A stretch of 63,896 bases of DNA, filler included, from Hausera hauseri (taxonomy: Eukaryota), in the NCBI GenBank assembly GCA_046269625.1. It is 11 parts of 11 records of this genome, joined end to end, with 100 filler letters (N's around TTAATTAATTAA, not from the genome) between each part and the next. Parts side by side here need not be neighbours in the genome. Positions count along the whole stretch, not along the records: positions 43,919 to 49,275 come from JBJURY010272619.1; 10 more parts are not named here. One strand, given 5' to 3'. Both the position numbers and the translations under genes were made by a program. This document shows, piece after piece, positions 9,001 through 63,896 of the stretch (position 1 is the first letter of the stretch; each line of letters starts with the position of its first letter). Below the pieces are notes generated by a model, which saw nothing but the letters and a program-made list of their open reading frames with translations, ran no database searches and was not told the DNA's origin.

Positions 9001-9452
9001 TAGAGAGGGCGGGTTTCGAAATCCTGCATATTGGGCTTAACCGCAGTGAGTTGAGTCGGATAAAATTATGGAGACAACCAGTTCCGGATTCCTGCATACT
9101 CGGATTCACCGCAATGTGTTGAGTCGGAAAAAATTTCGTAGAGAGCAAGTTTCGAAGTCCTGCATTTTCGGATTCACCGCAATGAGTTGAGTCGGATAAA
9201 ATTTTGGAGACAGCCAGTTTCGAACACCTGCATATTCGGATTCAAACCAATGGCGTTAGTCGGAAAAATTATGGAGACAGCCAGTTCCGGACTCCTGCTT
9301 ATTCGCATTCACCGCAAAGAGTTGAGTCGGAATAAATTTTTGGAGATAGTCAGTTTCGAACACCTGCATATTCGGACTCACGGCAATGACTTTTGTCGAA
9401 AAAATTATGGAGACAACCAGATCATGACACCTGCATATTCTGATTTACCGCA
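1..9452. repeat. Tandem satellite, 68-bp monomer, roughly 140 diverged copies
   Basis: GTTGAGT(C/T)GG recurs at 1, 69, 137. Consensus ~GTTGAGTCGGAAAAAATTWTGGAGACARCCAGTTYCGRACACCTGCATATTCGGACTCACCGCAATSA. Fills the contig; the short ORFs here are translations of the repeat. Confidence 0.97.
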
Positions 9453-11866: not shown

Positions 11867-11948
11867 GTAATGTTGGTATTTTTATCAATTTCAATTTGTA
11901 AAAATTCTCAATAATAATAATGGATATACGTTCCCTTCCGTTTCAGAA

Positions 11949-12960: not shown

Positions 12961-13234
12961 AAACAAATGCTACCCAGAGGCATGGAGTTATTCGCCCCGC
13001 ACAAACAAGAACCAAGGAAGTCTCCGCCCAATCTGAAAAACGGTTTTAAAATGGGCAATATGGCAAAATACGCACAAAGTAAAAAGACTGATAAAGTAAC
13101 ATTGCATGAGGGGAATTCGGTCACCCCGAAGTTTAGGATTCGTCGCGGCGAGGCAGAAACCCCGGCCGCCCACCCTATGCCATTGGGTCAGACGGCACCG
13201 TTGGCTGACGCCCAGCGACACGCCCCCGGCTACA

Positions 13235-28586: not shown

Positions 28587-28991
28587 AACTAAACACGTCG
28601 GTTCTAATCGGTTTGACTATTCAACTTCAACTTTCGTCTCCTTTTCTGGTTTCTTATTCTTATATACTTGTGTCAGTGCGTCCGCGTCCTTCAATAAATT
28701 CACCATTCTATTTAATTCGAGCTTTCAATGATAATAACTTTCCTATGATTTTTGTCCTTATTTTGCTTTCATGACAATAATTTACGAATGCATTGAAATT
28801 TGCTCTTGATAAATTATTTCGCAATCACAAATCTACAAATTGGTTTTAACTTGAAATAATTTTTCAACCTTTTTAAAAGAAATAATTTTCTATACACAAA
28901 TTCTAATTTAAATGATTACACTAAACTATTTATACGCTTCCTTTACACTTCCTCGTCATATCGACTCCTTTTCATAACATTTCTCCTCCTT
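28587..28991 (-). repeat. Polypurine tract (28980-28991) and start of 3' LTR (28979 downward)
   Basis: Minus strand CGCCACTCAAGGAGGAGAAA|TGTTATG, similar in context to CGCCATCTGAGGAGGGAGG|TGTTG at ~60494-60472. Confidence 0.7.
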
Positions 28992-29159
28992 GAGTGGCGA
29001 TCTCAAATGTGCCACTTGCCTCAACAAAGGAGCCACGATTACTGGGCCTCTGTAATAGGTTCAATCGCCTGCGTTACCTTTTATCCGAATTTGCTTGTAT
29101 ATTTCGAGGGATTACATCGAGTTGATAGTTGGTGCTACACCGAATGTCAACTATTCGGT

Positions 29160-29721
29160 TATTCTCGCCATTGGCATAATACTTGAGCCTTGGGGCTTCG
29201 GTTCGACATACTGGACATGTTGTCTTCTCGTTCTTTAATGTCCATGTTTCCAAACAATAACGACAATATCTTTGGATACAGGAGTCTTGATCTAAGTCTG
29301 GGACACCAATTTTCGTATATTTTCATTAATTTAACAAGAAGGCCAGAGATTCTAATTTTTAATGCGTAGTCAAAAATTCGAGCTGCACATGTGATATGCG
29401 TTGAATCTCCATTGCTCACCCTTGTTGATGCTCCATGGCTGGCCGGCAATCCGGTACACGTGTACATCTGATGCGTTCCTCATCTCATAGAGACAAACTA
29501 TTCGATTCTCGTCGGTTACCCACTTCAATTCGTTGGGTATCTTACTTTCTTGATTGAATTCTACGTAGGTTTTATCTCGGATTGCTTCCATGGTCTGGCG
29601 ATAGATACTTTTGGATGGTGGGTTAAAACGTTAGGTGTTCTTGAAATAACTCGTCAATATCCTCTATCAATGTTCGGTTTGTCAGAATTGCTTTCACCTT
29701 TTTGGCCTTACTTTGTAATTT
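29160..29721 (-). pseudogene. Gypsy accessory ORF, N-terminal part (exonuclease part absent)
   Basis: DIDELFQEHL..EAIRDKTYVEFNQESKIPNELK..ENRIVCLY..GEQWRF..DYALKIRISGLLVKL matches DIDDFLKQHV..ETLRKKNYVEIKRESRKPNGLK..DNRLLKLY..GQRWKF..DDTLEFRIAELPIKL at 46160-46751. Confidence 0.75.
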
Positions 29722-29748
29722 CTGAAATAAAAGAAATAAAGTTTAAGC

Positions 29749-30420
29749 CTAAGACAGATGTTTGTTTTGAAATAAAACATTTTCTCTGTCTGATGATAGG
29801 ATAACCTGATCTGTAATTGTCAGATTAGTATGCAACGCTCGACAGTCGATCTTAACATCATAGTCTAATTTTTTCTTGACAAAGAACATGATTTTATAGT
29901 GGTGAATCAAGTATTTAATAGATATATTTTCTAATTCCCTTTCGGACATTTTACTCGAAGTAACGATATTAGTAACAGTATTCGAAACAATAGTCTTTTC
30001 TTGTAGTTACTTCGAAAGGAATTTTCCATATCCGATCTTTCGGATAATAGCTTCTTAGGTAAATACTTGGTTTGTGGAGTTGGATTTCATATATATCGAA
30101 TCGTATTTTGAATTTGCGATCAATCGGTATTTTACAACATGGATCGAGTCTTCTGTGTCCGACATAACAATAATTCTCTGACTTCTTTACTTTTATGAAC
30201 TGAGTGAAAATTTAACTGTCACTGGTTAGTGCTGTCTTGGTTTTTATCTGGATACATCTATTGCTGATGTCCTGAGAGATTCCGATTATATTATTTTTGA
30301 GTTCGTCTCCTTGTGGATAGAACTTCCAAATAAAAAATAGAAAAACATGTAGATACAGTAGAATAAAACGACTGAAACAAAAATTGAGAAGGCAAAAAAC
30401 GAGAATAATTTTTATTAAAT
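29749..30420 (-). pseudogene. Env-position membrane-protein ectodomain remnant; TM segment deleted
   Basis: Hydrophobic leader, then NIIGISQD..ENYCYVGHRRLDPCCKIP..PSIYL..MSERELENI..KLDYDVKIDCRALHTN. Colinear with 47230-47730 (NIIGISK..EYCYIAQRRLTTCFRLP..PSIYL..MSERDLENI..KLDYEIKIECRTLHTN). Confidence 0.75.
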
Positions 30421-30449
30421 TCTCGCAAATTGTCCGCCGAGGTATGCGA

Positions 30450-31217
30450 GTCTTCGGTTTAGGAGTGGGCCGGATGAGTCGTATCGTCGTCCGAACTAGA
30501 ATCCGACTGTATAGGTTCCCGTCGTATCGTCTCGAAACGTCGTCCGAACTCGAACTCAACATCCTTAATTGTCGAGTTCAATCGGCTTGGATGACGGAGA
30601 TCAACTGGCTCTCGGACGCAACCAGTGACTCGAATAAGCGGTCGACGGCAACTATCAACCGGATAAATATCGGGGTAAATACTGAAGAGTCGAAGAGTTT
30701 CCTCGTTTCTCCGTCGACGTAGAACCTTTGGAGATGACTTGCCGGTAGAGAATACTGGTCGTATTCAGGTAGTAGGCTGAGGTGCAGCACAAAACGGCTA
30801 CGCTTCAGCAACTCCCCACTGTTCGGTAGTCCGAGTAAGATAGTGCGGAGCTTGATAGTCTCGGATGCGGCGTCGTCTCCTAGGGACATCGGTATTTCTC
30901 CATCTCGACTTTTGGTCGTTTCCACCGGCGGGATGTGACTCGCCGCTCACCAAAGGCTCATCGTGTGGCCTATCGTTGGGTGGTTGGACGTTTTCTCCAG
31001 CGTGGGCTAGTCGAATGACCTTGGGCATTCGGTACTCCGGAATGGGCCGAGTTTTCTTTTCGACATCCGTTGCGTCTCGTTGGATGCGGGAGATGGTGAC
31101 ATCAGCTAGGATGGCCTTCGCACCTTCTTTGGCGATGGGTTCACCGGGTTTCAATGTCCTTGTTGCCGTCGACTGGCCCTTTCCTTGTATTTGCGGCGTT
31201 TCTGACACGTTTTTCAC
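30450..31217 (-). pseudogene. Interrupted ORF of unknown function (higher GC)
   Basis: Overlapping ORFs 30798-31217 and 30578-30925 suggest one frameshifted gene; no family recognised. Confidence 0.35.
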
Positions 31218-31599
31218 ATGAATTTATTGTTCTTGTTTTTTGAAAAAGTCCCATCTGGTTTTTAACTGTGGATTTAAACAAAACGGTTTTTTTATCCTCC
31301 AATTTTCGTTGTTGATTGCAAAATGCTGGTCACTTCGACACTTGTGATCCGCCATTTTACATTTGCTATTTTTGTGTAGGCGAAAATGAGAAATTTTAAT
31401 TTTAGTATTTCAATTTGAACAAGTCCGTGATTATTAAATTGTGTTTTCTAATTTTATTTCACGTATTGGATTTTAATTTATTTTAATTTACATGTTTATC
31501 TATTTTTGATTTTGTAAAGTGGAACCTTACACTATATAATTTATTGTCAAATATGGTACTTAAGATAGTATAATTCCTCTTAATAGACGACTCAAAACT

Positions 31600-32400
31600 A
31601 TAAGACTTTAATACAACAAAATTTTCACATGTTGTTTCTGATCTGAAACCATGCAGACACATGAGACACTGTTTACACCGTATTTGTTTTTGGATGAACT
31701 TATCATGCGCCATGTTCAACTGTCTGCCCAAATTTGCCACGACCACGTAATGAAAAATTTCCTCCTGCTCTAACAGCAACAAATTTACCAACTGTCCATT
31801 TGGGTTCCGACTTCGATAAATTATACACATAGGGATTCTTGTAAATGACTTCATCCGCGGTATTTCTTTTATTGTAATGTACTGGAAAACGTTAATTGAT
31901 GGCGTCGGATTACGCCGTTGAAAACTGGAATGGTTTTCAGTTTCATCGGCATGCAACATTCATAAAAGTGCAATTCGGAAAAATACTGCCAATACTGAAT
32001 TGAACGATTTTCATGATGTCTGTCTACTTCCTCATATTTCAATACAGCCATAATACTGTAAAAAAAACAATATTCGTCATCAGTATTTTATACATTCACT
32101 AACGCAAAAGACTGCTCTAGAGCTGCATGTGCCGGTATGAATCAACTCCTAGGCAAATAAGTTACATCACTCGACTTTGTTACAATAAAGCCGAGAGTTA
32201 CAATTTTTATAATTCGCCATGCACTACCTTTTTCGGTATAGTTGGCGATTTTATCATCGAAACTTTCGCATACATCGGAAATAAGATCGTCGGAATATGG
32301 TATACTCGATGTGACAGGTATTATTGTTTCCTGTTGCCTTGTACATTTTCAAATTCTGTTAGTGAATAATATTGCATTTTTTAGTGGTGTTGGAACCGGT
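31600..32400 (-). pseudogene. polB: Polinton pPolB N-terminal fragment, second copy
   Basis: LVNV*NTDDEYCFFYSIMAVL..IYRSRNPNGQLVNL..HYVVV.NL.R..CLMCLHGF is homologous to 23511-23924 (YRSKNPNGSVVNL..YYVAVPNLNR..CEKCLHGF). Confidence 0.8.
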
Positions 32401-33201
32401 TGTGCACATTGGACGGCACATGTTTTAAATGCATTATTGATCTCGCTGACATGTCCACTTTTATGCCCACATGTGATCTGTTTACATATACCTGACAGTA
32501 ATGGAAGGTTCATGTTGCTGTTCCTGCTGCTACTGTTGATTCTACTGTTTGCTGCTTTGTATGTATTCGTCAAGTCTTGTTGATGCTTGAGCTTTCCTGC
32601 TTGTTGAGGGCATGCTACTGCTGTTTGTTGCGTCCATGACTGTCTGTCTTTTGAAGCGCCTAAACTGATTCAAGTGGCCCTTATGGTCGTTATAAAATTG
32701 TTCATAATTGATTTGGGCAACTATCGAACAACCTGGACAAAGATAGGCCCGTTTACAATGCACCATTGCGGTGCCATAATATTGCTCCATTTTACTATAA
32801 CAATATTATATTTAAAGAAATTGTTATATATAACAATAACAATACATAACAATATTCAACACACATACCATTTGATGTTTACCGGATTACCCAACGTCTC
32901 AATCCGGTTCCAACATTTCCCCCTTCTTCGGGTAGTCCGGTCTATAGTTGTATCTCCATCTACACAATCTTTTACATACTGTAANNNNNNNNNNNNNNNN
33001 NNNNNNNNNNNNNNNNNNNNNNNNNNNNTTAATTAATTAANNNNNNNNNNNNNNNNNNNNNNNNNNNNNNNNNNNNNNNNNNNNGTAGACAGATGTTACG
33101 ATTGCGGCCATGTAATAATATCTGGTGCTCACGGAGTAATACATGCCGTCATATACAGTACAGGATTTTTCAATTTTACCAGAGATTAAATATCACCCGG
33201 T

Positions 33202-34290
33202 ATGCACCCTCAAGATCTTCAACGAGAACTTTATGTACGAAACTTTATCTACAAAACTCCGAATTTCCCACGATTTCTTTTCTTTAATGATTCGGATGAA
33301 GAGATTCCCCCTCAACTTCGGATTACGTTGGCTAGCTATAAGAGAGTCCTTTACGCATGCGACGTCGGTCGTGTAGACGAACCAAATCGATTAAGTCCCA
33401 ACTTTCATTTTGTACCTAGGAAATCAACAAAACCTCGTTTTTCTATTTTACATATTTCTCATAAACTCCAACATATTCAAGATTTAAGGCATGTTATTCA
33501 CGTTGTAAGCATTGAATGTACCAAAGCCCTTAATTGGTATTACATTGACTCATCACCTGATCACTTAATTAACACAATTAATAATGCGGAGCTCCATTTA
33601 ACTTCTGACATTCATTTACTTATCTTTCCACCACACACAACAGCCGATCTCCAGATTAACCATCTATACGAAAGCTTTAATAAAATAGAAAACAATACTC
33701 TTATTTTCCTCGGTGGTAGATCTCCACACTTCGAAACAAATAGCTATGCATTTCCGTCGCCGTTTACACAGGAATTAAAATCATACATTTACTTCTCGGC
33801 ATATAAAAAATTCCTTTTGAAGCGGGTTCCATTTTACCGATTTCACAATGGCGATACGTGTGTGCTCGTGTTGGACCCGCAAAATATTAGAGTTGTTTCT
33901 CTACGGAGGCTGTATAACAAAAAAGATTAAACGAAATATTTGGGAACCGTTTCAGACATAATATCAAACTACAATTACCGGTTAGATCTTTTAAAAGAAA
34001 CAGCAATCCTCTTAACATCGATTAACCACATCGATATACTACACTACCCGGTTTACATTATATCACCGCCATTCCACCTATACCTTTATATTAATAATAA
34101 CCTAATGAAAACCGTAAATGTCACACAAGGTATGGAGACATTACACTCATACGCTCGCATTTATAATACAACCGCCTACACTGATTTCTACCTGACTCAC
34201 AACGGTTTCATTTTAATAACCTCCCACACATCATGGTCTCATATTGCCATCTATGTATACACGTCAATCCTAGAATCCGCGGCGGTATGA
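33202..34290 (+). pseudogene. ORF0 upstream of gag, ~360 codons with one in-frame stop, unknown function
   Basis: ORFs 33202-33930 and 33940-34290 share a frame. The C-terminus (LYINNN..DFYLTHNG..YTS) recurs at 13235-13453 and, less clearly, at 53145-53400. Confidence 0.7.
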
Positions 34291-38640: not shown

Positions 38641-39566
38641 ATAATGCACCTCAAACTGAACCTTCTACACCTTCTCTGACGCCACCGCCTTTTCCAATTT
38701 CTATTCCTTTAAACTCTACACCTACCCGTTACTAGAACCTATTCCTCAAACTCCTTCACCTAATCGCCCAACTTTTCTTCCCTTTTCTCCTACATTTTCA
38801 CCTCCAGCTCATTCTTCGTCTCTGAACAGCATACCAACTTTAACNNNNNNNNNNNNNNNNNNNNNNNNNNNNNNNNNNNNNNNNNNNNTTAATTAATTAA
38901 NNNNNNNNNNNNNNNNNNNNNNNNNNNNNNNNNNNNNNNNNNNNATTCTAAAGGGCTACGCTCATATTCATAGAATCTGGGGTTACAATACGTAACCAAC
39001 GTTCTATTTCATATGAGCTACACCCTTTAGACAGCTTCGCTTATTGGATAAAGGGCGGAGCAGGATATGGTCCATGCCTCACTGGGTCCAAACACCAGCA
39101 TGAAGCACATGCTCGCACCATTTACAGCAACATACATCCTTCCTCGTGCGTAAAAGCGCATGCCATGTATCATTGCGCATTAGGGAAGGGCATTCGGTGG
39201 ACGGAGAAAAGAAATGGGCCTGCAGGCCTACGTTGCAGCCTACCAGGCACAATCCGACCGCTGAGGCGGCAAAAAAAGAATTATATGTGTTTATTATTGT
39301 TTTATATGTATTTCATTGTTGTGTTCAGTTTATAGTGTGGTTGTGCAACGACGCCAAGGGTAGAACAGGCCCTGGCGGGTGAACCAACAAACTGAGAGAA
39401 CGTAACTGATACTGAGAACTATGCACAGAGCAAATCAGATATTTATTAAACGACAATCATGAAGCAACAGTAACATGGCACTGTGACTGATGCTGTAGAC
39501 TCACACATCATGCCTGCCTTCAGGCAGATGTGAGCTCAGAGCAGAACTTCAGGAGGGGCTCATGAA

Positions 39567-40037
39567 TTACTCTGATAAGACTCCGAGAACAGAATGAGTC
39601 ATAGAAAATGCAGAAACATCACGCAGATAAAAGCGTATAAAAGAGCAAGGCGTAGACCACGCCGCTGCTGAACAGATGTCACTGACCGTCATCCCACCGT
39701 GCAGCGCTGTGGAGGACGCGATGGCCCGCGTGGAATGTGCACGCAGGATTTGTGGGGGTTCTGCCCCAGTGGCTCTGTGAGCCTCTGAGATGCCCTCACA
39801 CAACCAATGAGAGAGGCGCTGAGAGGACAGAGCGCGTCCAACCGAGCTGTCTCTGTAGTGAACAAACAGGCGCTGAGAATGACGTAGAGCGGCTGTGCGA
39901 GTCACATAACATGCGAGCGCACGAACAGGGCACAATAGATGAGACGTGGCCTCTTCCTCTGACGCGTGTGGAGGAAGATGAAACCCATTTAGCGTGATAG
40001 TCCTTGATTTGAAGGAACTATTTATGCATTTGAGCAT
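39567..40037 (-). pseudogene. DIRS tyrosine recombinase, C-terminal half
   Basis: LCPVRAL..LFVHY..LSHW..RAHSTR..ICSAAAWST..F.RFY (H-x-x-R, W and catalytic Y). Confidence 0.9.
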
Positions 40038-41056
40038 GTAGGCCGGTTGGGCCTACATGCCATCATGGTCATCCAGGCAGCCGTGCGTGACAGGCAGACT
40101 GTGGATGCGGCACAGAGATTGAGGATTGCGTCTGCAGCTTTGCACAGCGAGCTTTTCGCTTCCTCAGGCAGGTCAGTCTCCTCCAGCCTTTTAGAGATGA
40201 GGAATGCGAGGAGGGCAATGTTGTTGCTGGCCGCAGCAGCCTGGACAGAGCACTGATGAACTCTGTTCGAGAGCTGCATGATGGTCTGGTCATGCCTCCC
40301 AGGTGGGACTGGTTTCTGATCCATCCTGGCGGCTTTCACCCCGAACACCTCCATGAGGCCCTGCTACAGGGGGGGCACTGATGGGAAACCCTGTTCAGTG
40401 AAACCCGCCACCTTCGTGATAGAAGCGAAAGTCGAATCTGGGGCTTTCGCTTTGGCGGGCGCTGCCACAGCCTCGTTCCAGTATGACGTCACCGCTGGAA
40501 AATGAGGCCAGATTGGGTCAGGGCACCGGGCCGACATGGAGCCGAATCTTCCCGCCAGATCATCGAATCTCGGCGGGGGAGGAGGCGGAACGGGCAGGCC
40601 CTTCGTGTCTGCCGCTTCATGGATGATGGCGGGCAGTTCCTGGAGAAGGGCGTCCAATGCTGGGAGCGTGGTGGCCGCTGACCTCGGGGGACGGAGGGGC
40701 GCAGAGCATACGTTTTGACACTCCTCGTCCAACACCACGCTCTCGAGGAGGGATGGAGCAGCGCTTCGGGTGCTGCCTCCATCCCCGTGGTCAGGTGAGC
40801 CATTCGGCTCAACCCTCGCATTAAAAACAGAGATGGCTTCGTCCAGCGGCATCTCGTCTCGCACCTGCCATTCGTCGCTTTCGATAGCCTTGAACAAGGC
40901 TGCTCGGTGCTCCCGCTCTCCGGCGGGCAGGAGGCGGCAAAGGCGACAGGGGTTGTCGAGTTCAGCATGTTGGGAACCCAAGCATCCCTCACAGATCTGG
41001 TGCTGGTCGAAGCTCCGGATAAGGGCGACTTTGCACGCTGGACAGGTTCTGGCCAT
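40022..41056 (-). pseudogene. DIRS1 Gag-like ORF1
   Basis: MARTCPACK..DQHQICEGCLGSQHAE..CRLC, the Cys/His N-terminus typical of vertebrate DIRS1 ORF1; one internal stop at ~40364. Confidence 0.8.
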
Positions 41057-41264
41057 TCTTCCTTCTTGTTTCGAGTAGGTCTTCAGTTGACGGCTGAATG
41101 ATAAAGGGAGACGATTTTCCCGTGTCGGGAGATTATAAAGACACGAGGCGGGCCCACACAGTAGGTGGGCGTGGACTATAGGTTTTTCAGTGGGCGCACT
41201 GGCGCGCAAGGGATTATCCAGTAAGCAAAGCTGTCTAAAGGGCGTAGCTCATATGAAATAGAAC

Positions 41265-42410
41265 AACAGGAAGCGTTACTCTCCCCTCAAGGTTTTGTTG
41301 TCGGCACCAGTCGGCTGCAATCTGGCTGTCATCAAGGATGGAGCTTTCCTGCATTTCTCTGATGAAGTACCTACACGAGAAAGACATGTTCAATACACCT
41401 TACCGACACATGTATCTAATACAAAAACATACACCATGAAACACAACATGTAATGTTGTTGTGGAATTGTTGGTAATTATTTTACAAATTTTGAAAAAAA
41501 AAATTTAACTATTCACTGTGTTCTTCTGTTGATATGCATGAAGATCAAACTGTGTATTTGCATAAAGGACATTTACCATGTATGTCTTGTAAGTGCCTTA
41601 TTAAGTTATGAGGTCTTGTGATCACAAGAGATTTACACATAGGGCAGTGGTAGTGGCTCCTAGATGCTTGTTTGACATCCTTGCAGAAGCAGGCAACAAG
41701 AAATTGCTCTACAAAACAGATGAAGATTAGTTAAAAATGCATGGCTTTATGCAAATGTAAAAACTTAAATAACATATGAACTAACACAATCATTTGGAAT
41801 TATACCTTGATTGTTGGATGAGAAATAAATAGTTTCTCTCAGGTGCTTTCTTTGAAGGTGGCCACTGTTTCCAAGCTGTTTTTTCTCACAGAATTTGCAC
41901 TGAGAAGCAGCACAGCTCAAAAATGATTCAACATCAAAAAATGTATGATGCGAAACTGGAAAAAAACAGAGACATCAATGAAAAAAAATGAAATTTTAGA
42001 AAAGATGAAAATGTATGGTCACAAGCACTAAATCATCAGTGTAGTAATAACTGTTAGTTCATGTTATTTGTGCAGAGTTATTTATTTATAAATACTAATC
42101 CTCTCCATATGTGTCATCTGTACTTCATCAAAAAAACAAACAAACAAAAAATTCATCTTACCGTCCATTTTTCAGCGAGATTAGGATACAGACTGATGAG
42201 AACCTATGCACATCACAAAGCAGCAGTTAGAAACTTAAACAAATACATACATATAAAAAGGATAATTTTTTCAACTTACTTTGCCAACTCCAGCTGGAAA
42301 ACGTCCTTATGGTACCTCTTATTAAGCTTTGTGTGTGTTCTTTGCCACGCTGCACGCTGGTTTGCCAGATCGGGCTCTTGCCAAATTACGGAAAGATGTA
42401 CTGTCTAAAA
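41265..42410 (-). CDS. Multi-exon gene fragment with a C2H2-like zinc-finger exon, interrupted by the DIRS element
   Basis: AG/GT-bounded exons, e.g. 41577-41708 (132 nt, phase 1-1, QFLVACFCK..SHYHCPMCK..NLIRHLQDIH), ~42162-42203 and ~42280-42405. May be transposon-derived; not identified. Confidence 0.55.
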
Positions 42411-43818: not shown

Positions 43819-44258
43819 NNNNNNNNNNNNNNNNNNNNNNNNNNNNNNNNNNNNNNNNNNNNTTAATTAATTAANNNNNNNNNNNNNNNNNNNNNNNNNN
43901 NNNNNNNNNNNNNNNNNNACAGGAATTATCTTGAACAATCGTGCTCGCCTGATTACAATTTTGCTTCACAGAATGAATTCGCACTTCACTCTTTTGTTTT
44001 CTTCTCCCTCTTCTGTCATTTCTATCGCTATATATACATCTATGGCTAATGAATTTTCTGAATTTGTGTGTTTTAAATTTCTTTATTTTTCGTTTCTTCG
44101 ATTTATTCGATTTACGAATTGATAATTTTCACATTTGTTGATTTTTCTCCGTTGATTAGATAACTGCATGCACTAATTATTATGTAATTGCTAATTTACA
44201 ATTATTTGCTGAATTCTACTGACTAATTTCGGTTTCGGTTTCTATTTTCACTTTACAT

Positions 44259-44690
44259 TTATACAATATCTTTTGCTTTTCTGCAACATTTCTCGTACTT
44301 TTGTAACATTTTTTCGCCCTGAACGGCATTCTCGGATGTGCCATTTGCATCAGATGAGGTGCCGCGTAAACAGTTCATTCGTCCGCGTAAGTCGGCTTCC
44401 GAATCCGATTCATCTCGTGGTGATCGCGGATCAAAGTGGTATGACGTATTGGGTTTTGGGCGCAATATTTCCACTATCTTCTTACTTTCCTCATTAGAAA
44501 AGTATATCAGTCTTGTCGCTTCGGTCCTACATACTGGGCAGGTCGTTTTCGCATTTTTCAGGGTCGACGTTTCTAAACAGTACCGGCAGTATTTATGGGT
44601 GCAATCCTCATTGTCTAATACCACAAATCCTTGATACAGATTTGCATCACAAACGGGACATTCTACATTTTTGCCTCCATCAATGTCTAC
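44259..44690 (-). CDS. C3HC4 RING finger domain at the end of the accessory region
   Basis: ECPVCDANLYQGFVVLDNEDCTHKYCRYCLETSTLKNAKTTCPVCR; all eight ligands present. Confidence 0.85.
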   Translation of the reverse strand, partial: VDIDGGKNVECPVCDANLYQGFVVLDNEDCTHKYCRYCLETSTLKNAKTTCPVCRTEATRLIYFSNEESKKIVEILRPKPNTSYHFDPRSPRDESDSEADLRGRMNCLRGTSSDANGTSENAVQGEKMLQKYEKCCRKAKDIV

Positions 44691-45677
44691 TAGGTTTTCG
44701 TCAACTTCTATTCGTTCGAATACTAGTCCTTTTTTATCTTAACATAGATATCCGCATAGCCGTTTTTGTTTGGGGTGTATAGAATATTTTTTAGGGTCAT
44801 CTGACACAGTGGCCAACCTCCATTCAACGATTTCTTGTTTATCTAAGTCGGGTATTCCGGTTTTCTTGTACTGCCTTTTAAATTTTACTCGGACTTGGGT
44901 ATCTACTGGGATGGTTAGTCTATTGGTACTATTTTTCGACTGGAATATTGGGGCTAAGTATCGGCCAATGGTTACATCGTCTCGGCCATATCCATTTCCA
45001 CTTACGATTCTTCGAGGAACAGTAGATACGTAGAATATGGCTAACTTGATATTTCCTTTACTGTAATACTCGGACATGACGAGCATTTTGGTATATTATT
45101 TTACTTGACCAAATTCTGTGACTGCAGTTTGGTTGTTTTCTTCCCAGTTCTTCCGAAGAACATTTACTTCTGTTTTGGATGGCTTTGGGCTGGTAACTGT
45201 TATTCTGGGTTCGCCGGAATTTTCGGCTTCTTGCCGTTTCGGCCTTTCTTTAGATGTGTTTACTTCATCATTCGATGTGGAGCTGCTAGTAGACGGTTTC
45301 ATGTCTCCGAGTTGGCTCTTACTGGTTTTACTCCTCTTCTTACTAATATATTGCAAGAAGGAAGTTTTCATCTTTTGTCCTCTTGGAATTTCTCCGGTAT
45401 TCGATTTTAGTCTTTTTATCTTCTCCTGAGGAGTCAATCCAATCTCGATTCGGTTTTGACTAGTCGATGGTTTTTGCTAGTTGTTGAATGTTTTGGCCGG
45501 GCTGTTGCGGACGGTTACTTGGAAATTATTGTGTCCTTGTGGTTCGATTTGTCGGTATGCCGGATACTCGCTAGACCCTTTTCGAAATTTTTGCATCAAG
45601 ATTTTTGGGTTGCTGTCAGATATTAAATTTTGTGTCGGGTTTCTGGGTTTCCATTCGTGTTCCCATCGTAGTGATGT

Positions 45678-46751
45678 CTAGATATCCCTTATTAGTTTCG
45701 CGCGTTGACTTGTTGTCACTAATTTAGGAAATCTTAATTGTTTGCCGTTCATGGCTTCGAGCATCATTTTAAACTGTGATTCTCTTGACGCTGAGGGAAG
45801 TAGACATCCTCTTTTCCTCATTAGAGTACTTTCTATCTGACTTACAACAATTGGATTGCGACTATATATTCTTGCCGAATTTCCAATTTCTCTAGCATAT
45901 CGTGCACTCTGAATCCGGTTACGACGAAACCGTATAGCCAATGACTTTTGTCTTCTCGGATTTCCAGGAAATCTTTTCCTTTTTCAAGTTGTGGTTTGGT
46001 AATTCCGGAAACATCTGGAAATGCGTCTTTCACTCTTGTTCTGGGGCGATTATTTTGTCTATGATTTCCTCTTCATTTATATTTCGGATAGACACTTCGA
46101 TCGGAGTGTACCATCTGTTATCCTTCTCTCCATAATTTAAAGGCTAAAAATCGGGTATTTTGGCCGTCGGGAACTAGTCTGAAAGATTCTCCGTTTCGTT
46201 CTATGTCGTTTTCGGAAGGTTTGTGCATAAATAATATAGGTGGTAATGGGCTCATCATCTCTGTCCGCAAGGTAAATTCAAACGTGAGCTTTATTGGAAG
46301 TTCTGCGATCCTGAATTCCAAGGTATCGTCCATAAGACTGAAGCAGCACAATTTATATGTACTAAACTTCCACCGTTGCCCTCTTCTGGTACTTCAGGAT
46401 TGTACTACGATCCTGTATTGGATTTCTCTATCTGCTACATGGATGCATAACTGCTGATGCGTTGGTTCATATGGGATCATGTCCTTCAAAGAGTATGTTC
46501 GTACATCTTTTGGATTTCACACTGCGTATAGTTTGAGTAGTCGATTGTCCTCCAAACCACATTTCAGCCCATTCGGTTTTCTGCTTTCCCGCTTGATTTC
46601 CACATAATTCTTCTTTCTTAGAGTTTCTCCGATTTGGAGGTGTAGGCTTTTAGAGTTTGGCTTTAGCACTGTTACATGTTGTTTCAGGAAATCGTCAATA
46701 TCGTTTTCGGAGCTGGTAGTTGAATTCTTCGCCTTTTCGGCCACATTTACT
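45678..46751 (-). pseudogene. Accessory ORF: unknown N-terminal domain + DEDDh-fold pseudo-exonuclease (45680-46160)
   Basis: TPIEVSIRNINEEEIIDKIIAP / VKDAFPDVSGITKPQLEKGKDFLEIRE..WLYGFVVTGFRVHDMLEKL follows the REX1/REX4 pattern (VS..N.....D..V.P..V.D....SGI...L....F.E....L.G..LVG). Confidence 0.75.
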
Positions 46752-46849
46752 CTGCGGAAGTAAAAATAAAAGTCAATCCTAAGACAGATCATCGTTTTGA
46801 AACAAAACATTTTCTCTGTCTGATGATAGAATAACCCGATCTGTAGTTG

Positions 46850-48200
46850 TCAGGTTATGCTATCAAAAAGCTCGTCTCTGTGCCCTATTTGTTTTTTATC
46901 CCTCCGTTGATTTTTGCACCGATTATCACAATTTTTGGAGACTAAGAAAATCGTCGTGATTAATATAACAAGAACGAAAATTGACAAACTGAATATGGCT
47001 ATTGTTGGTAGATTATCTGGCTTAAAAGTACTTTCTGTAGTAAGCGTTCTTGGAGTACTAGTGCCTTTATATGGCATTTCGTGTACTTTATCGTGTAGCG
47101 TTTGTATTGTCAAGATTTTAGGCCTCTTATTTCTGGCTGTAATTTGAATTACGCAATTATTTTGTGATCGTAGGGATTTGCATTCGATTTCCTAACTATT
47201 CTTCCTTAAGATTACAATTTCGTTGGTATGCAAAGTGCGACATTCAATTTTAATTTCGTAATCCAATTTTTCATCAATATAAAATACAATTGTATTACGC
47301 CGTACCAAAATTTTAACAGGTATGTTTTCCAAATCTCTCTCGGACATTTTACTCCAAGTGATAATAATAGTAGTACAAGTTGTACTGGGAATGGTAGACG
47401 GTTTTCTCGTAGTTGTTGGGAGGGAAATCTGTCACATTCCTACTTTTGGATGATATCCTATTAAATAGATACTCGGTTCGTTTGGGCAGGTATTATACAG
47501 ATCCAGTTGTAATTGGTAGCTGTATCCCAACGGCAATCTAAAGCACGTAGTGAGCCGTCGCTGTGCAATATAACAATATTCTGGGATAAAAGTTAAAGCA
47601 TTTAATGTTATGAATCGTATAGAGATTTGTCTGTCTTCCGGTAATTCTATTTTGGTTGTGGCTCAAATACGTTGGTTTTTGAAGTCTTTTGAGATTCCGA
47701 TGATGTTGAAATCTAAGAGTCTTTTGAGTGGGTCGGTGTGTCGGACTATCTTGTCCGTCTTGGTTTGGTTCGCATCGTTACGCTAATGCATTCTGATTTC
47801 AAATTCAATAATTATGTAGTCTTGGGCTCCAGGCAAATTGTAATAGAACATTTGGAACTTATATTTATAGATTCGTCCGAATTCCAAATCGCAACATTTA
47901 TGATCGGCTCCATACGAGAAATCACATATCTTCGTTCCAGAACTAGTTTGATCCACCAATATTATTTGAAATATTACGTGGTTCTTAACAGATTCGCTTG
48001 CCTTAAACCAGGCGCAAGGTTTCGGCCAGTCCATGTCGTAGACTCTAAGTGACTGCAAGTTTTGCATATCTTTACGTTTTTCCGCATATTGTTGTTTTTC
48101 GGTTAGTGTTATTCATTCTATTTTCGGTATATACGAAGCAATTAATGAGAAAGCGAGGATTACCTGTGCATAGGATATGGGTCTGGCTACTATTGTCGAT
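46850..48200 (-). pseudogene. Env-position type I membrane protein with FN3-like Cys repeats
   Basis: Signal-like VILAFSLIASYI; CDFSYGADHKCCDLEFGRIYKYKF and CYIAQRRLTTCFRLPLGYSYQLQL; Thr-rich stalk; TM IAIFSLSIFVLVILITTIFLV; basic tail. Confidence 0.7.
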
Positions 48201-48249
48201 GTCTTCTTGCTTTTCTTTGTTGGATTTATACTTTCTTTACTAGAACACA

Positions 48250-49275
48250 GGTTGTAGCGCTTGTTTTGTCTTATTTCCGTTCTAACTACTCTTTGGATGG
48301 ACAAGACCTCTTCCTTACTGTTTTTATTAATATAAACTGTAGTTGGTGTGGTCCGAATAACCTCGTACTGTCCTCTACCTGTGCGAGTCAGTTTTAGGAA
48401 TGTGCCTTTTTTCGCGACCGGGTAATGTATGTAGACCCAATTCCGTATTCTAGATCATGTGGTTTGGCTTTCTTATCATACTGCTCCTTAAATTGTTCTT
48501 GATACTCTTTGGATAATTCTTTGGCTATTTCCCAACACTTGCGTAGTCTCATCTGTAACACTTCCACAAAATTTTGTTTTAAATCCTCTGTGTTCACTGT
48601 GTACGGTATCATTTCTAAATCTGTGGGCAGCACAGCTTCCCTGCCATTCATCATGAAAAACGGGGTGAATCCTGTTGTTGGATGTGGTGCAGTGTTTATG
48701 GCGAATTGTGTGCCTTCTACAAATTCGTCACAATCCTTTTGGCTTTCGCCACTACGGTTGACAAGATTCGCACCACTGTCGCATTCATTCGTTCAACATT
48801 TCCGTTACATTAAGGGTGATAGGCTGTCGTGGTTAGTCGTTCGATTTCGAATATTTTGGTAATTTTTTCGAAAAGTTTACTCGTAAAGTTTCTTCCTTGG
48901 TCTGTTAAAATTTGTTCAGGAGGTCCATATTTACGGATAATTTTCCTCACTACTGCTTCTTCCAGAGTTTCGGCTTTTTGGTCCATTAATGCTATCCGTT
49001 TGACGAAATGAGTTAGACGATCTACACACGTTAGAATGTACTTGTTATTTTTGTGAGTGGTAGGTAATGGTCCTACAATATCCATGGACATTGCTTGCAT
49101 TGGTCTATCCGGTACGTCTATTGGCTTAAGTTTGACAATACAGTTTTTCACTTTTCTTTGTTTCGTTGCGCAAACTTCGCGCACATTTACCTAATTTTTC
49201 ATGTCGATGTATATACTTCACAAATAATATTTATTTAGTATTTTCTCTAAGGTTTTCTTTCATGACATGTGTCCG
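48250..49275 (-). pseudogene. pol: Gypsy integrase (zinc-finger end, DDE core, GPY/F-like region)
   Basis: GHMS..CAT, SMDIVGPLP, VDRLT, LTDQGRNFTS, TTAYHP, TGFTPFFMMNGREAVLPTD, GQYEV. Confidence 0.93.
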
Positions 49276-56376: not shown

Positions 56377-57466
56377 GTCTACTGTGGCACATGTCACATC
56401 AATGAAATCAGAATGAATGACGGACACAGCAATTCGATGATCGATATTGTTATTGTTCAATGAACCACAATTTGTGTTGTATGACGTCTCCATCGTATTT
56501 GTTAATTCTTGGATGACTTTCATTTTGTCTGACTCTTTTTTGGATACTGGTTGCTCCTGTTCTTCTTCATCACTCTTAGATAATTTGATCGACAATTTCC
56601 GACGAAGAAAGAGTGGCAAATGAACAACAGCGGTATCTGTGATTATACGTAAGAATAATCGATGATGAACTGTGTCGAGCGTGATAGGATTGTCAACAAG
56701 CAAATTATGAAATTGTTTTAAAATTCAGAACTTTGCCGAACTTTTAGATATTCTAACTTTTGAAAAGAAGATTTATTTAAAAAAGTGAGATTTCATTACG
56801 ACATAAAATTAAAAGCATTATCCGACTATGAGGAAAAGTACTGATGACAATTTATTCGAATCTATTTACCAAAAGTCATCATCATTAAGATGCAGTTATT
56901 TTACATTATCTGACGTCACCATCAAAGACATTATTGCCGATTATGATAACTGCCTCAGTTATTACGTACAGAATTTCATCACAATTACCGATTTATCACG
57001 ACTATTCTGCTGTATTATATGTCAAATTAACCAACTGAAAAATTCCAATAAAGCACATTTATTACTCGACAAAACTGTTACATTCATGCACCAGAATCAA
57101 CTACAGATAGATTGCATTTCTGCAGTCTCTGCTAAAAGTGTCGTCTATAACAAATGTCCGCTTGTTGACAATCCTATCACACTTGACACAGTTCATCATC
57201 GATTATTCCTACGAATAATCACAGATACCGCTGTTGTTCATTTGCCACTCTTTCTTCGTCGGAAATTGTTGATCAAATTATCTAAGAGGAGCAACCAGTA
57301 TCCAAAAGAGTCAGACAAAATGAAAGTCATCTAAGAATTAACAAATACGATGGAGACGTCATGCAACACAAATTGTGGTTCATTGAATTATAAATATATC
57401 GATCATCGAATTGCTGTGGCCGTAATTCAATCTGATGTCATTGATATGACATGTGCCACAGAAGAC
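56377..57466. repeat. Inverted duplication, arms 56377-56701 and 57160-57466
   Basis: LVDNPITLDTVHHRLFLRIITDTAVVHLPLFLRRKL..IDHRIAV..TCAT is encoded on both strands. Confidence 0.92.
56828..57466 (+). pseudogene. Unknown ORF, frameshifted and fused to mariner
   Basis: 168-aa ORF plus continuation 57350 onward; no family recognised. Confidence 0.4.
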
Positions 57467-59893: not shown

Positions 59894-60487
59894 TTGGAAG
59901 ACATCGCCATCCGGGTCCAACGCTACCTGACGGCAGCCCGTTTAATTCTTAAATAACTTAGAGCCAAGTACAACCTTAGTGAGTACAAGGAATTACAGGC
60001 CCACAGCCTACTAGACACCGACATATAGATATAAGATAATGCTAGGTAGGATTCTAGTATCTGTCCCACCCACATATACCCAAGTTATTTGTTCACCCAT
60101 TAATTTGTATAAAGTGATAATTAAAAGTCTCTCCCGAATTGAATTAGTGGGAACTGAACATATATACCATTTCGAGAATAGGTAATTTTAGAAGGAAAAT
60201 AAAACAAAATTCCAATATACATAGTAAAATACGAAAGAATTTAAAAATTACACAAGAGTAGACTAAACAGTATTAAATTAATTCTAGTTATTTATCGTCA
60301 TATCGTCATAACTGCCATTTATCGCACAAGTTTATTCGTTGATACTGATTTATCACACAAGTTTATTCGTTGATTAGAATTCTAGATCATTTGTAACACT
60401 AATTAAGATGATCAACACCATTTGTAATATAACATTAAGATGACCAACACGATTCAACAATCAACACGATTCAACACCTCCCTCCTC
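59894..60487 (-). repeat. PPT (60477-60487) and 3' LTR (60476 downward; distal end not defined)
   Basis: Minus strand CTGAGGACAGCGCCATCTGAGGAGGGAGG|TGTTGAATCG, a typical Gypsy TGAGGAC..PPT|TG junction. Confidence 0.8.
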
Positions 60488-60520
60488 AGATGGCGCTGTC
60501 CTCAGTGCCAGAGGGTGTCT

Positions 60521-61826
60521 TTAGGGTGCCGTTAGAATATTGGTAATTCGCTGAATGAATGTTGAGCCAGGACCCTTTATCCTTGATTTTATTATTAAGA
60601 GTAATAGTTTCTTTTTTGGTTTAGTTCTCTTTATGGGTTTCTTTGTTAAGTCGATTACGGTTGGTTCTGGTAAACTGTCATTGAACGTGTTCGACACTGA
60701 TAATAAAGGAGCTTGATTCATAATTTCGTCGGTAAGAATTAATCGATTTGGTGAGTCTTGGATGTCCATTGGCGAAGCGGTTGATCCTGTTAATGCGGAT
60801 TCTTCTGTTGTTATGGGAAATTCTTTTATACTTTTATAGATTTTCAACATAGTTGCGGCTTTTTCGTTTGTCCGTTGGGGATATTCGCTGTTGTTATATT
60901 TCACTAAGATATGGGCTTGTGTTAGGTGCTTTTGTGTATTTATTTCTTTGTAATAAAGGAGATCTCTAACTCCCAGTACAGCATTAATATTGAATAGGTA
61001 GAAATGCTGGTTATTTTCATAAACATTCATTCTTACTATCACTTTTTCCGATTAGCTGTTGTCGGATTTTTTTTCAGCATCATATTTATCAACTTGACCG
61101 ATTATATCAGCTTCCTTTAAACCGGTAATCCGGCAGTTATAGTTGTCGATGCGGTTTCGGGGACAGATAAACGGATTATACAAGATATTTCCATCTAGGT
61201 CTATGATAGTTATTACGACGGGTGTCTGCTCTTTTGATCGAATAGGCTTCATAAGATAGGCGCTATTTATGGCCATAATAATAATTTCTTCCTTTTGTAT
61301 CTGCGGTGACCTGGCAAATGATACACTCTGTTCCAATCGTAATCTATCGGGTAGTGCTATCGGGTAATTAGCAGGTTTAGGATATTCCAAATGAGGGAAT
61401 GTTTCCCTTCGAATCACTTCTACATAAATCACTGGTGTAGGTCTACTATGAGGCCGTAGTATTATCGCAGCATTTTTATAAAAGCGTTGGTCCAGACGGA
61501 CTGTCGTAAAAGAAACGAGTTCTACTGTGTCGATCATCCCGTTTAGATGAGTTCGACTTTTTATTTGGACGGTTTCTTTAACAGCTTATATATAGACTGA
61601 TGTAGTTTGGTTTGAGAGGTCTATGATGTCAGGCAATTTGTGGAGGCAACTGGTAACTAAATATTTAGACCACTTCGTTGAGTGACTAGGTGGCCTTTTA
61701 AGTTATTTGGAATAAAGGAACATTTTCAATAAAATATGTAATCTTTTTGAACGGTTGCATTAAGATTAGTAATGATGTTGAAATAAAATGATTTCTGTCT
61801 ATCGGCTATTTCGGATCCTTCTTGGT
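60521..61826 (-). pseudogene. Accessory ORF with DEDDh-fold pseudo-exonuclease and VIDLT/basic tail
   Basis: ITIIDLDGNILYNPFICPRNRIDNYNCRITGLKEADI..KIRQQLIGK/VIV..GVRDL..NEKAATMLKIYK; tail EPTVIDLTKKPIKRTKPKKK. Confidence 0.78.
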
Positions 61827-61914
61827 CTGAAAAGAGATACATCAATATAAGGTAAGAGAATGTTTTAAAAATAATAATCTGATAGGTCGCAGAAAATTTT
61901 TCAGCCCAGTTTTA

Positions 61915-63260
61915 TTATAAATATTTTGTGTAGGTCGCGAGGAGTTTGGCGGCCTTATCTTTTATATGTGTGCAGATATATAATGCAACGTTTGTTAACG
62001 GTTGAATTTGCCGTTTAGAATTTGATAGCTTTTCAGCCTGGGAAGACGCATCCATATCATTAGTAAAATCGTTTTGGGAACCCTCTCTTAATAATTTTAA
62101 TTGTTGTGTTAATTTCTGGGTCTTGCGCATTTTACGTCTTACTTTGGAACGATAAATTGTTATCGGTAATAATATGGTTATTGAAACTAAAGGGATACCT
62201 AATGTGATAAACAACCAGAAATATTTGTCAGAAGTTTTTTTTGAATTTGCATGGTAGTTGTTTTTATAGCTTCATTCGTAACAATTGTCCGTAATTTCAA
62301 CGTCTTTTTCATTTTTGTAATTTCTTGTAAAAACTGTCCGTCTTCGTCTAGCTCTGTTATAATGATCCTATAATTAGTATCAGCTTTTAAGATAATACAA
62401 GCCGATGTTGGTTCGTCTTGGGTCAACACTCCTTCACTAACCATTCTTTTGTGAAGAAAACATTCAAATTTTATATTGGTATTTTTTAAATTTGATATGG
62501 TGGTAGTAAGAGAGTGTGGTGTTAATTGTATAGTTATATCTAATTTCTTAATAATTTTTATAGCTTCGGTCGGCTTCTCTATCGGTAATTTTGTGATAGA
62601 AATCCTTGGAATGATTATAGTTACTGGTGTGGCCCATTATATTATTTCTGCTCCATCTGGCTATGTTGACCACGCATAAACATTAGTCGTTGTTTGGTAA
62701 TAAATTTGGAATGATCTATTAAATGAAAAGGACAACAAAGATGTGGTTTTTGGTAATGTGGTTTGCATTTTATAATATCGGTTTTGTTTCGGATCCAACA
62801 TTCTATGGTGTGATATTTAGTTATTGGAATTTCTGTCTCAGCCGTAACGCAAAGTCAATTTCTCATGACTTTTGTATAAAATGAAACAAGAAAATATAGT
62901 TGGTGGAAGTAATGAGTCGTACCGGGATATGAAAAATGTTTTCTATGTGACTGACCTCTTCTTCCAGTTGCGTATTGGATCCTATGGGATACTCTGAACG
63001 TAAGCCCACAACACGTATGAGTTGAATGGTTATAATGCAAGTCACAATATTCCGGTGTTGCTTTGTACACAAAAGGTATTTTCGATATGAATATATGTAT
63101 ATATTCACCGTACGTTAGATTTCGATTGGCCGTAATTTTTATGCACGGGTATTGTCCAACCTGGACGGCTTTATATTGTACGGTAGGACTCTGAGCCGAT
63201 ACACAGGTTTCTAAGCTTAGCATCATAAGTGTTGCTACTAGAAATAGGTTAGGATTTTTA
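61915..63260 (-). pseudogene. Env-position type I membrane protein, in frame with integrase
   Basis: LFLVATLMMLSLETCVSA|QSP signal; YPCIKI..EYCDLHYNHSTHTCCGLTF; CIILKADTNYRIII (FN3 Tyr-corner-like); TM WLFITLGIPLVSITILLPITIY followed by RSKVRRK. Confidence 0.72.
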
Positions 63261-63269
63261 TTTCTTATC

Positions 63270-63630
63270 TTTGATTCCATCGGCGCGGGCTTCCATCTGT
63301 TTACATGTACTTTTAATGGGTCCATTTTATTTCTTTTACTTTTATTCAAATAGATTTTAGGTTCATCCACTTTTTGGACCATATATAGACCTTTATATGG
63401 TCTATCCAATTTTGGCGTTTTACCCTTTTTACTTGAAGGCGTATGTAACATAACCTTGTCTCCAGGTTTAAAACCATGAGATTTCGCTCTTTCAATATAT
63501 CTATATTTATACTCCTTTTTACATATTTTTATATGTCGAAAAGCCAGGTTCCATACTTGTCCAAATTTTTCTTCTATTAATTTTTTATATTCCATATCCT
63601 TTAGATGAGACACTGGAATTTTGAATTCTA
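63270..63630 (-). pseudogene. pol: Gypsy integrase C-terminal GPY/F region
   Basis: FKPGDKVML..KLDRPYKGLYMV..KVHVNRWKP. Confidence 0.85.
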
Positions 63631-63896
63631 TATCATGTTGAATTAACAGTATTAAAATATACAAGAGAATGGATAATCCAGAACGGAAAAGTTGAAAAAT
63701 TATTGAAATTTTGTTTTTCAGAGTTTTAGAACCATTGCCTGTGATATTAGACGTTACACCATTCTAATGTCCCGTTTCCCAGTTTTCGAATAATATATAA
63801 GACATATGTGTGCAGTGATTATTCATGTGTGTAGAGACTGTGCAAAGTTGATAAAATGCGTTTTTGAGTCACATTTAACAGATTTTTCAATTTAGT

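What the first reader, a model, noticed from the sequence alone, without database searches (positions are those of the whole stretch)
46752..46860. Conserved non-coding block ending in a splice acceptor in front of the accessory ORF
Seen: 46770-46860 and 29745-29830 look more similar in DNA than the flanking ORFs. Each is followed on the minus strand by a pyrimidine tract and CAG (AG at 46752-53 and 29722-23). 61827-61890 has a related CTATCAGA..TTTTAAAACA..TCTTA..CTCTTTTCAG. The accessory ORF begins right after, with no conserved ATG. Inference: it is expressed from a spliced or trans-spliced subgenomic RNA, like retroviral accessory genes.
Basis: partly seen in the sequence, partly recalled or inferred. 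Interest (0 to 1): 0.72.

Follow-up and report, generated by a model that had tools for sequence, protein, structure and literature searches.

The report
Folded RNA guarding retrotransposon splice site
A family of virus-like jumping genes in an animal keeps a small, strongly conserved stretch predicted to fold into two RNA hairpins, just in front of a likely splice site for an extra gene, and this fold probably helps decide whether the RNA is spliced to make the extra protein or left whole to copy the element.

Summary
The block is real. The two copies (46752-46858, 29722-29828) are 86% identical, against 59-65% in flanking genes. It is the best-folding part of the element: two hairpins on the sense strand, with pair-keeping changes between copies and compensatory changes forced by a distant relative's read-through peptide. 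In the one sequencing run that holds this DNA, its core draws more related contigs than the genes beside it. A branch-like motif, pyrimidine tract and AG follow. Three corrections: related copies have an in-frame start codon just after the acceptor, so 'no ATG' is wrong; the homologous AG lies 3 nt upstream of the one named; the third site (61827-61890) is at most weakly related. The acceptor most likely sits in the 5' UTR of a spliced subgenomic mRNA for a nuclease-like/RING accessory gene of a Ty3/gypsy element. Cis- versus trans-splicing is untested: no RNA run was listed. Spliced accessory genes are known. A conserved structured element at such an acceptor was not found in my searches. The scan noted the protein family before, but not this block.

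The parts
48813..49190 (-). Integrase core of a Ty3/gypsy-like element (contig 43919-49275)
   Evidence: Pfam rve E 8e-16; best homologues 43-52% identical pol proteins
46853..48454 (-). Integrase tail running in frame into an env-like membrane protein with a C-terminal transmembrane segment; broken by 5 stops
   Evidence: One frame, 534 codons, hydrophobic segment at 47014; no env Pfam hit, so 'env-like' is by position and anatomy only
46832..46857 (-). Hairpin 1 (8-bp stem, 10-nt loop)
   Evidence: Fold z -3.7 for the block; 2 of 8 pairs differ between copies on one side, both still pairing
46778..46830 (-). Hairpin 2: 4-bp base stem, 5-nt bulge (46826-46822), 7-bp stem, internal loop, 7-bp stem, 3-nt loop
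   Evidence: summed depth peaks at 122,000-126,000 over 46805-46834; P0126 peptide compatible with all 14 upper pairs
46752..46776 (-).
   Evidence: branch motif yUnAy is recalled
44262..46744 (-). Accessory gene (DnaQ/DEDD-like domain plus C-terminal RING finger), broken by stops and frameshifts and at its start codon (46744-42)
   Evidence: Pfam RING; 38-45% identical to intact relative P0127, which matches DnaQ at E 8e-4 and RING ligases
29748..29827 (-). Second copy of both hairpins, in an internally deleted sister element that lost the env tail and most of the accessory gene but kept the block
29722..29747 (-). Pyrimidine tract and UUNCAG acceptor of the second copy
61827..61890 (-). Acceptor-like site in front of a distantly related nuclease-like ORF in a third element; relation to the block not shown

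Best explanation
The block is a conserved, predicted two-hairpin RNA element at the 3' end of a likely intron in an env-bearing Ty3/gypsy-like retrotransposon, and it probably tunes use of the adjacent splice acceptor so that part of the RNA is spliced into a subgenomic mRNA for the accessory gene while part stays whole. SHOWN: sequence conservation above the flanking genes; sense-strand folding with pair-keeping changes; an acceptor-like signal 27-30 nt behind the stem; an in-frame start codon downstream in relatives. INFERRED: the element is transcribed from its 5' LTR; a donor near the 5' end is joined to this acceptor (cis-splicing); the ORF is translated from its own AUG; the structure, ending a few bases before the branch site and present only in unspliced RNA, binds a protein at its bulged stem and so limits splicing or marks unspliced RNA for export or packaging.
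For: Conservation of 86% against 59-65% in flanking genes. Best-folding of 88 windows along the contig, z -4.3. Of 5 differences at paired positions between the two copies, 4 keep pairing, all through G-U, which works on the sense strand only. In run X1 the 179-nt bin holding the block has summed depth 42,140, against 63-624 in the six env bins before it, 28,424 for the best integrase bin and 11,076 for the RING bin. Only 12 places in 180 nt vary at 8% or more, none in the 7-bp outer stem. P0126 residues 1-23 read through the block without gaps. Only 15 of 27 fixed letters equal the window copy, yet a full 7+7-bp Watson-Crick hairpin is possible, 8 pairs are forced, and 2 forced pairs differ on both sides. 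18 of 20,000 shuffles and 31 of 51,630 window stretches (2 of them the block itself) pass the same test. P0126 also forces 14 of 15 pyrimidines before an Arg codon at the acceptor position. The acceptors fit UUNYAG, the parasitic-flatworm motif (PMC12582326, passages). The membrane protein is in frame with integrase, so the accessory gene is the one ORF that needs its own mRNA. Precedents: Cer1 cerv (PMC10309623), Tor3a env (PMC4402516), and ORF3s in general (PMC5408684).
Against: No splice junction or donor was observed, and no 5' LTR is present on these contigs. The two-copy comparison has no two-sided change and its shuffle control is uninformative (500/500); one loop-closing pair is broken. 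P0126 evidence is inferred from protein: its DNA was not seen, its inner stem needs a 1-nt slide, and the Arg codon need not begin with AG. P0127's tract does not show a clear branch motif. Run depth is not a copy number and comes from one run that may be the window's own source; it also falls off at the acceptor for alignment reasons (1,808 at 46752, of which 8% read another letter). Structure and acceptor could be neighbours with separate jobs. In Oikopleura Tor3b/4b the downstream gene uses an internal promoter without splicing (PMC4402516, passages).
Confidence: 0.5

Rival explanations
1. The hairpins are a cis signal of the genomic RNA (packaging, dimerisation or constitutive export) that merely shares the short intergenic space with the acceptor; splicing to the acceptor happens independently of them.
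For: The deleted sister copy kept the block while losing the env tail and most of the accessory gene (one case). The core is shared by far more sequence in the run than the acceptor and ORF start (about 126,000 vs 2,000-4,000 summed depth). Structured export elements are known in retroviruses and endogenous retroelements (PMC4829213, passages).
Against: The spacing from stem to AG is held at 27-30 nt in the two copies and, by inference, in P0126, which suggests coupling. The depth drop at the acceptor can come from the 80% cut-off.
Confidence: 0.2
2. The accessory gene is the downstream cistron of an operon-like transcript. A spliced leader is trans-spliced to this acceptor, and the hairpins act like the nematode Ur element, protecting the RNA and recruiting the leader.
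For: The last env stop lies about 100 nt before the acceptor, within the 50-200 nt typical of C. elegans operons (10.1101/642082, passages). The start codon is 10-12 nt behind the AG in the window's subfamilies. Earlier scan notes call the host a probable flatworm with a spliced leader (not tested here). Flatworm acceptors are often shared by cis- and trans-splicing (PMC12582326).
Against: The leader's terminal AUG is not needed: the ORF has its own start, and the acceptor phase differs between the second copy and the others. Trans-splicing reaches under 31% of mRNAs in the parasitic flatworms studied (PMC12582326). No AATAAA lies just upstream of the block in the main copy (read). I found no paper on trans-spliced retrotransposon accessory genes.
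Confidence: 0.17
3. No splicing: the accessory RNA comes from an internal promoter, from an exonuclease-blocking fold or from internal ribosome entry, and the T-rich tract plus AG is incidental.
For: Internal promoters drive env in Tor3b/4b (PMC4402516). AT-rich DNA makes pyrimidine tracts common: 54 UUNYAG sites with at least 10/14 pyrimidines in 107 kb.
Against: An acceptor-grade signal recurs at the same place in several diverged elements. G-U variation points to RNA, not a DNA promoter motif. No Rfam family matches.
Confidence: 0.09
4. There is no function: the similarity comes from recent recombination between subfamilies or from a small high-copy repeat inserted here.
For: Template switching between retroelement subfamilies is common (own knowledge). 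The very high run depth could belong to a separate repeat.
Against: Compensatory pairs in a relative only 56% identical at fixed letters. No terminal repeats or tail mark it as an insertion (read). The block stays linked to the same gene in P0126.
Confidence: 0.04

Closest known systems
Cer1 / CERV of C. elegans (PMC10309623; abstract, sections 6 and 15, passages read)
   Same: [quoted passage not shown]
   Different: CERV is fused in frame to gag-derived exons, whereas here the ORF has its own start. No RNA response element is described in what I read. Here the protein is a DnaQ-like/RING fusion, and an env-like gene is also present.
HIV-1 RRE/Rev and M-PMV CTE (PMC4829213, passages read)
   Same: Structured cis RNA elements that let intron-containing retroviral RNA leave the nucleus.
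   Different: No sequence or structure match (no Rfam hit). This element is about 80 nt, abuts the branch site, and has no shown ligand or export role.
Oikopleura Tor elements (PMC4402516, passages read)
   Same: Env-bearing Ty3/gypsy elements in which the downstream gene gets its own mRNA: spliced in Tor3a, from an internal promoter in Tor3b/4b.
   Different: There the downstream gene is env. Here env-like sequence is in frame with integrase and the separate gene lies behind it.
DEDDy ORF3 of bdelloid Juno/Vesta elements (PMC5408684) and planarian Burro (PMC6431247); passages read
   Same: LTR elements with captured nuclease or ubiquitin-related accessory ORFs; ORF3s are stated to be typically expressed from spliced messages.
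   Different: No conserved RNA structure at the ORF3 acceptor appears in the passages read. Burro carries its extra domains mostly within one polyprotein.
Nematode Ur element (10.1101/642082, passages read)
   Same: Intercistronic motif that directs processing to the downstream acceptor over a short gap.
   Different: It is tied to SL2 trans-splicing. Flatworm leaders show no such specialisation, and no motif other than UUNYAG is enriched within 50 nt of flatworm trans-splice acceptors (PMC12582326).

Membership tests
Spliceosomal 3' splice site | Branch-like motif, pyrimidine tract and YAG in order | tested here: met
   criteria set after seeing the sites; branch motif recalled
Spliceosomal 3' splice site | AG conserved across the family | tested here: inconclusive
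   46752: 8% other letter at depth 1,808; homologous AG at 46756-55 present in 98% of depth 727 but broken in the window copy. Depth here covers only close subfamilies.
Spliceosomal 3' splice site | Junction reads and a donor or leader | not testable with these tools
   No RNA holder listed; no joints at the block in run X1
Conserved structured RNA element | Folds better than shuffles | tested here: met
   z -3.7 and -2.1; best of 88 windows; the opposite strand also folds (z -3.3, -2.5)
Conserved structured RNA element | Covariation | tested here: inconclusive
   4 one-sided pair-keeping changes and no two-sided change in 2 DNA copies; 2 forced two-sided changes inferred from P0126. Supportive, but no deep DNA alignment was available.
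Known Rfam family (hammerhead, snoRNA, miRNA, CTE, RRE, IRES) | Match to a covariance model | tested here: not met
   None at gathering score; best E 0.58 at 17.7 bits against a gathering score of 100
ORF started by the flatworm spliced-leader AUG | No own start codon, and ORF in phase 0 behind the AG | tested here: not met
   Own start in relatives; phase 0 only in the second copy
Rev/RRE-type system | Element lies only in unspliced RNA | tested here: inconclusive
   True by position if the acceptor is used; use not shown
Rev/RRE-type system | Element-encoded protein binds the RNA and exports it | not testable with these tools
   No RNA-protein tool; the single-sequence model of P0126 was unusable (pLDDT 34)
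Ty3/gypsy LTR retrotransposon | Integrase at the end of pol with gypsy-type relatives | tested here: met
Ty3/gypsy LTR retrotransposon | RT, gag and paired LTRs in the same element | not testable with these tools
   The contigs are 4-5 kb and cut the elements; no whole genome is held
Errantivirus-type env | F-type or gB-type fusogen fold | not tested
   Only hydrophobic segments; no Pfam env hit

The most novel reading that the evidence does not exclude
An invertebrate Ty3/gypsy family has independently built a Rev/RRE-like feedback switch. The spliced accessory protein, a nuclease-like RNA binder fused to a RING ubiquitin ligase, binds the bulged hairpin beside its own branch site, blocks its own splice and licenses the unspliced genome for export or packaging.
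Probability: 0.15. Interest if true: 0.8.

Novelty: new variant of a known kind. Interest (0 to 1): 0.5.

Why it matters
How LTR retrotransposons outside vertebrates balance spliced and unspliced RNA is barely known. In Cer1 the protein is known, but I saw no RNA target in the parts read. Here a compact, family-wide conserved RNA fold sits at the acceptor of an accessory gene whose product looks like an RNA binder with a RING finger. That gives a defined 80-nt RNA and a defined natural protein to test against each other. If the fold only marks an ordinary acceptor or packaging signal, it is a useful but modest annotation.

Tried and rejected
No whole genome is held. No RNA holder was listed; the one run found (X1, kind unknown, contigs) held 65% of the words and may be the window's source. 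This says nothing on expression. Joints (15 shown, 40 not shown) are low-depth and none touches the acceptor; one search has none. DNA pattern scans for the block found 0 matches in viral contigs and in metagenome contigs. Protein-led locus scans gave no confirmed relative. A homologue search with the third element's ORF found none among 1595 candidates; P0127 found only P0126 among shorter proteins. Rfam gave nothing above chance. Hammerhead was rejected by eye: the plus strand has the CUGAUGA-type core (motif recalled) but no matching GAAA and stems. snoRNA and Pol III microRNA-cluster readings were rejected by eye: boxes not conserved between copies, hairpins about 26-53 nt with loops. A covariance model and a profile from the two copies found no further copy in the window, including in front of the nuclease-like ORF at 10684-9752. 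Direct BLASTP between the main and third accessory ORFs was not significant. The AlphaFold model of P0126 was unusable, so no fold search was run. The protein atlas gave no answer. Literature searches listed no paper whose title or abstract start describes a conserved RNA structure at a retrotransposon accessory-gene acceptor. The library lacks most subscription papers and I read no supplements.

Full report
Setting. The window is 11 short contigs joined by an N-spacer, rich in decayed Ty3/gypsy elements; no whole genome is held. The finding lies on contig 43919-49275, minus strand. The order is integrase core (Pfam rve), then an integrase tail running in frame into a membrane protein with a C-terminal hydrophobic segment, then the block, then a broken accessory gene ending in a RING finger. 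Contig 28587-32984 holds an internally deleted sister: the env-like sequence joins the block at a short shared motif, and most of the accessory gene is missing. Contig 59894-63896 holds a more distant element with the same gene order. Earlier scan notes call the host a probable flatworm; I did not test this.

Conservation. The two blocks match at 89 of 104 aligned bases, against 235 of 360 (env-like), 212 of 359 (accessory 5' part) and 124 of 190 (RING); one shared env-tail peptide stretch is 54% identical. One public run holds this DNA (X1, kind not recorded, contigs). Laid at 80% likeness, 3988 contigs give summed depth 42,140 in the bin with the block, 63-624 in the six env bins before it, 28,424 in the best integrase bin and 11,076 in the RING bin. 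At fine scale (471 contigs) depth peaks at 122,000-126,000 over 46805-46834, stays at 57,000-94,000 over the rest of both hairpins, and falls below 2,000 upstream of 46870 and to about 3,500 behind the acceptor. The tool warns that depth is no copy number, and the run may be the window's source. I use it only to say that the core is shared by many more related sequences than its neighbours; 125 of the 471 contigs fit only partly, as diverged subfamilies would.

Structure. The sense strand folds at z -3.7 and -2.1 in the two copies and is the best of 88 windows along the contig (z -4.3). The opposite strand also folds well (z -3.3, -2.5), as hairpins do. The shared model is hairpin 1 (46857-46832) and hairpin 2 (46830-46778: 4-bp base, 5-nt bulge, 7-bp stem, internal loop, 7-bp stem). 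51 of 52 cells pair. Four pairs differ on one side and still pair, all through G-U, which points to the sense-strand RNA; one loop-closing pair is broken; no pair changes on both sides, and the two-sequence shuffle is uninformative. In the run, 12 places vary at 8% or more, none in the outer 7-bp stem; those in stems (46837, 46830, 46799, and 46814 beside the stem) keep or extend pairing, while 46803 breaks a pair unless it goes with 46799. The depth peak covers the base stem, the bulge and the 5' arm, which is where a protein would be expected to read sequence (inference). Positions 46830-46827 can pair either with the foot of hairpin 1 or with 46781-46778, so two folds are possible. No Rfam family matches.

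A distant relative. Among 1.84 billion representatives only two proteins match the accessory N-terminus: P0126 (44%) and P0127 (38%, 870 aa). P0127 carries a DnaQ-like stretch (E 8e-4) and a RING finger, in line with earlier scan notes on a pseudonuclease-RING gene. Their called N-termini start upstream of the conserved domain. P0126 residues 1-23 line up without gaps with the window frame across hairpin 2 and the tract (9 of 23 identical). Its amino acids fix 27 letters in the hairpin span, only 15 equal to the window copy. Yet the outer stem is possible in the exact register and the inner stem with a 1-nt slide, all Watson-Crick; 8 of 14 pairs are forced, and 2 forced pairs differ from the window on both sides. 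18 of 20,000 shuffles and 31 of 51,630 window stretches pass the same test, five slides allowed. This is inference from protein, but it is the best evidence for selection on the fold.

Acceptor and start. Behind the stem come a branch-like pentamer (motif recalled), a pyrimidine tract and AG. The second copy's site is among the 3 strongest of 5444 AGs by criteria set afterwards. The sites fit UUNYAG, the acceptor motif of parasitic flatworms (PMC12582326, passages). P0126 forces 14 of 15 pyrimidines before an Arg codon at the same place; P0127 forces 13 of 18 but is less clear. Stem-to-AG spacing is 27-30 nt in the copies that can be read. 3527 of 3540 related depth gives an in-frame start at 46744-42 (not listed), the second copy is broken at the homologous codon, and both relatives have a Met just before the first conserved motif. 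The AG-to-start distance is 10-12 nt in the window's subfamilies and, by inference, over 100 nt in P0126 and P0127, and the phase varies. So the acceptor lies in the 5' UTR, and neither an upstream exon nor a leader AUG is needed for the frame.

Third site. 61827-61890 has a fair acceptor and precedes an ORF with a weak ISG20 match (E 0.26) and a weak profile match to the family. Its likeness to the block is marginal and it does not fold. It may be a decayed distant version or only a parallel acceptor.

Mechanism. Most likely a long LTR transcript is partly spliced from a 5' donor to this acceptor, giving a subgenomic mRNA read from its own AUG. The hairpins, which end a few bases before the branch site and would be removed by that splice, would set the balance or mark the unspliced RNA (0.5). 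Rivals are a splicing-independent packaging or export signal (0.2), operon-like trans-splicing (0.17), an internal promoter or other unspliced route (0.09), and no function (0.04). I put use of the acceptor at about 0.8 and selection on the fold at about 0.9. No junction was seen, because no RNA run was listed.

Comparison and novelty. Spliced downstream genes are known in Cer1 (PMC10309623: abstract, sections 6 and 15, passages), in Tor3a (PMC4402516, passages) and, as a general statement, for ORF3s (PMC5408684, passages). Structured export elements are known from retroviruses (PMC4829213, passages), and Ur elements from nematode operons (10.1101/642082, passages). In the env survey PMC13524379 (passages) flatworm errantiviruses are gag-env-pol with gB-type env, unlike the order seen here. 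PMC6431247 (passages) describes Burro. My ten searches listed nothing on a conserved fold at a retrotransposon accessory acceptor; supplements were not read and could bear on this. Verdict: real, a new variant of a known kind, interest 0.5. The bold reading, a Rev/RRE-like loop run by a nuclease-like RING protein, has probability about 0.15.

Noticed in passing
window 48454-46853 and 63763-62645 (minus): In two diverged elements the membrane protein is in frame with the integrase tail, with a signal-like hydrophobic stretch at the join (63247 in the third element): a likely pol-env fusion released by signal peptidase.
   Followed up: partly
window 10684-9752 (minus): Another nuclease-like ORF (weak match to the third element's ORF, E 0.006) lies antisense and upstream of a gag-like gene, with no copy of the block in front of it.
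   Followed up: partly
window 33190-33930 (plus): A host-like DUF2152 fragment (Pfam E 6e-11) sits directly upstream of a gypsy gag-pol, like the host-gene capture noted earlier in this genome.
   Followed up: no
window 11871-13266 (plus): Long unexplained ORFs (149 and 376 codons, no Pfam hit for the longer one) just upstream of the gag of a sister gypsy element; possibly captured host sequence.
   Followed up: no
window 1-9452: A 68-bp satellite array fills the whole first contig.
   Followed up: no
window 38945-41300: A GC-rich segment with a repeat at about 39001-39051 / 41214-41264 (inverted, 94%) and ORFs that look by eye like a DIRS-type element (tyrosine-recombinase-like tail; recalled); its composition differs from the other contigs.
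   Followed up: no
window 23511-24041 and 31486-32348 (minus): Related ORF fragments on two contigs (57% over 42 aa) resembling the region beside Polinton-type DNA polymerase genes (recalled).
   Followed up: no
window 56377-56701 / 57160-57466: A 325-nt inverted duplication at 89% identity, next to an integrase-like fragment related to 48518-48742.
   Followed up: no
window 46780-46779 (minus): A further YAG lies inside the base stem of hairpin 2, 24-27 nt upstream of the acceptors; it could be a decoy or alternative acceptor hidden by the fold.
   Followed up: no
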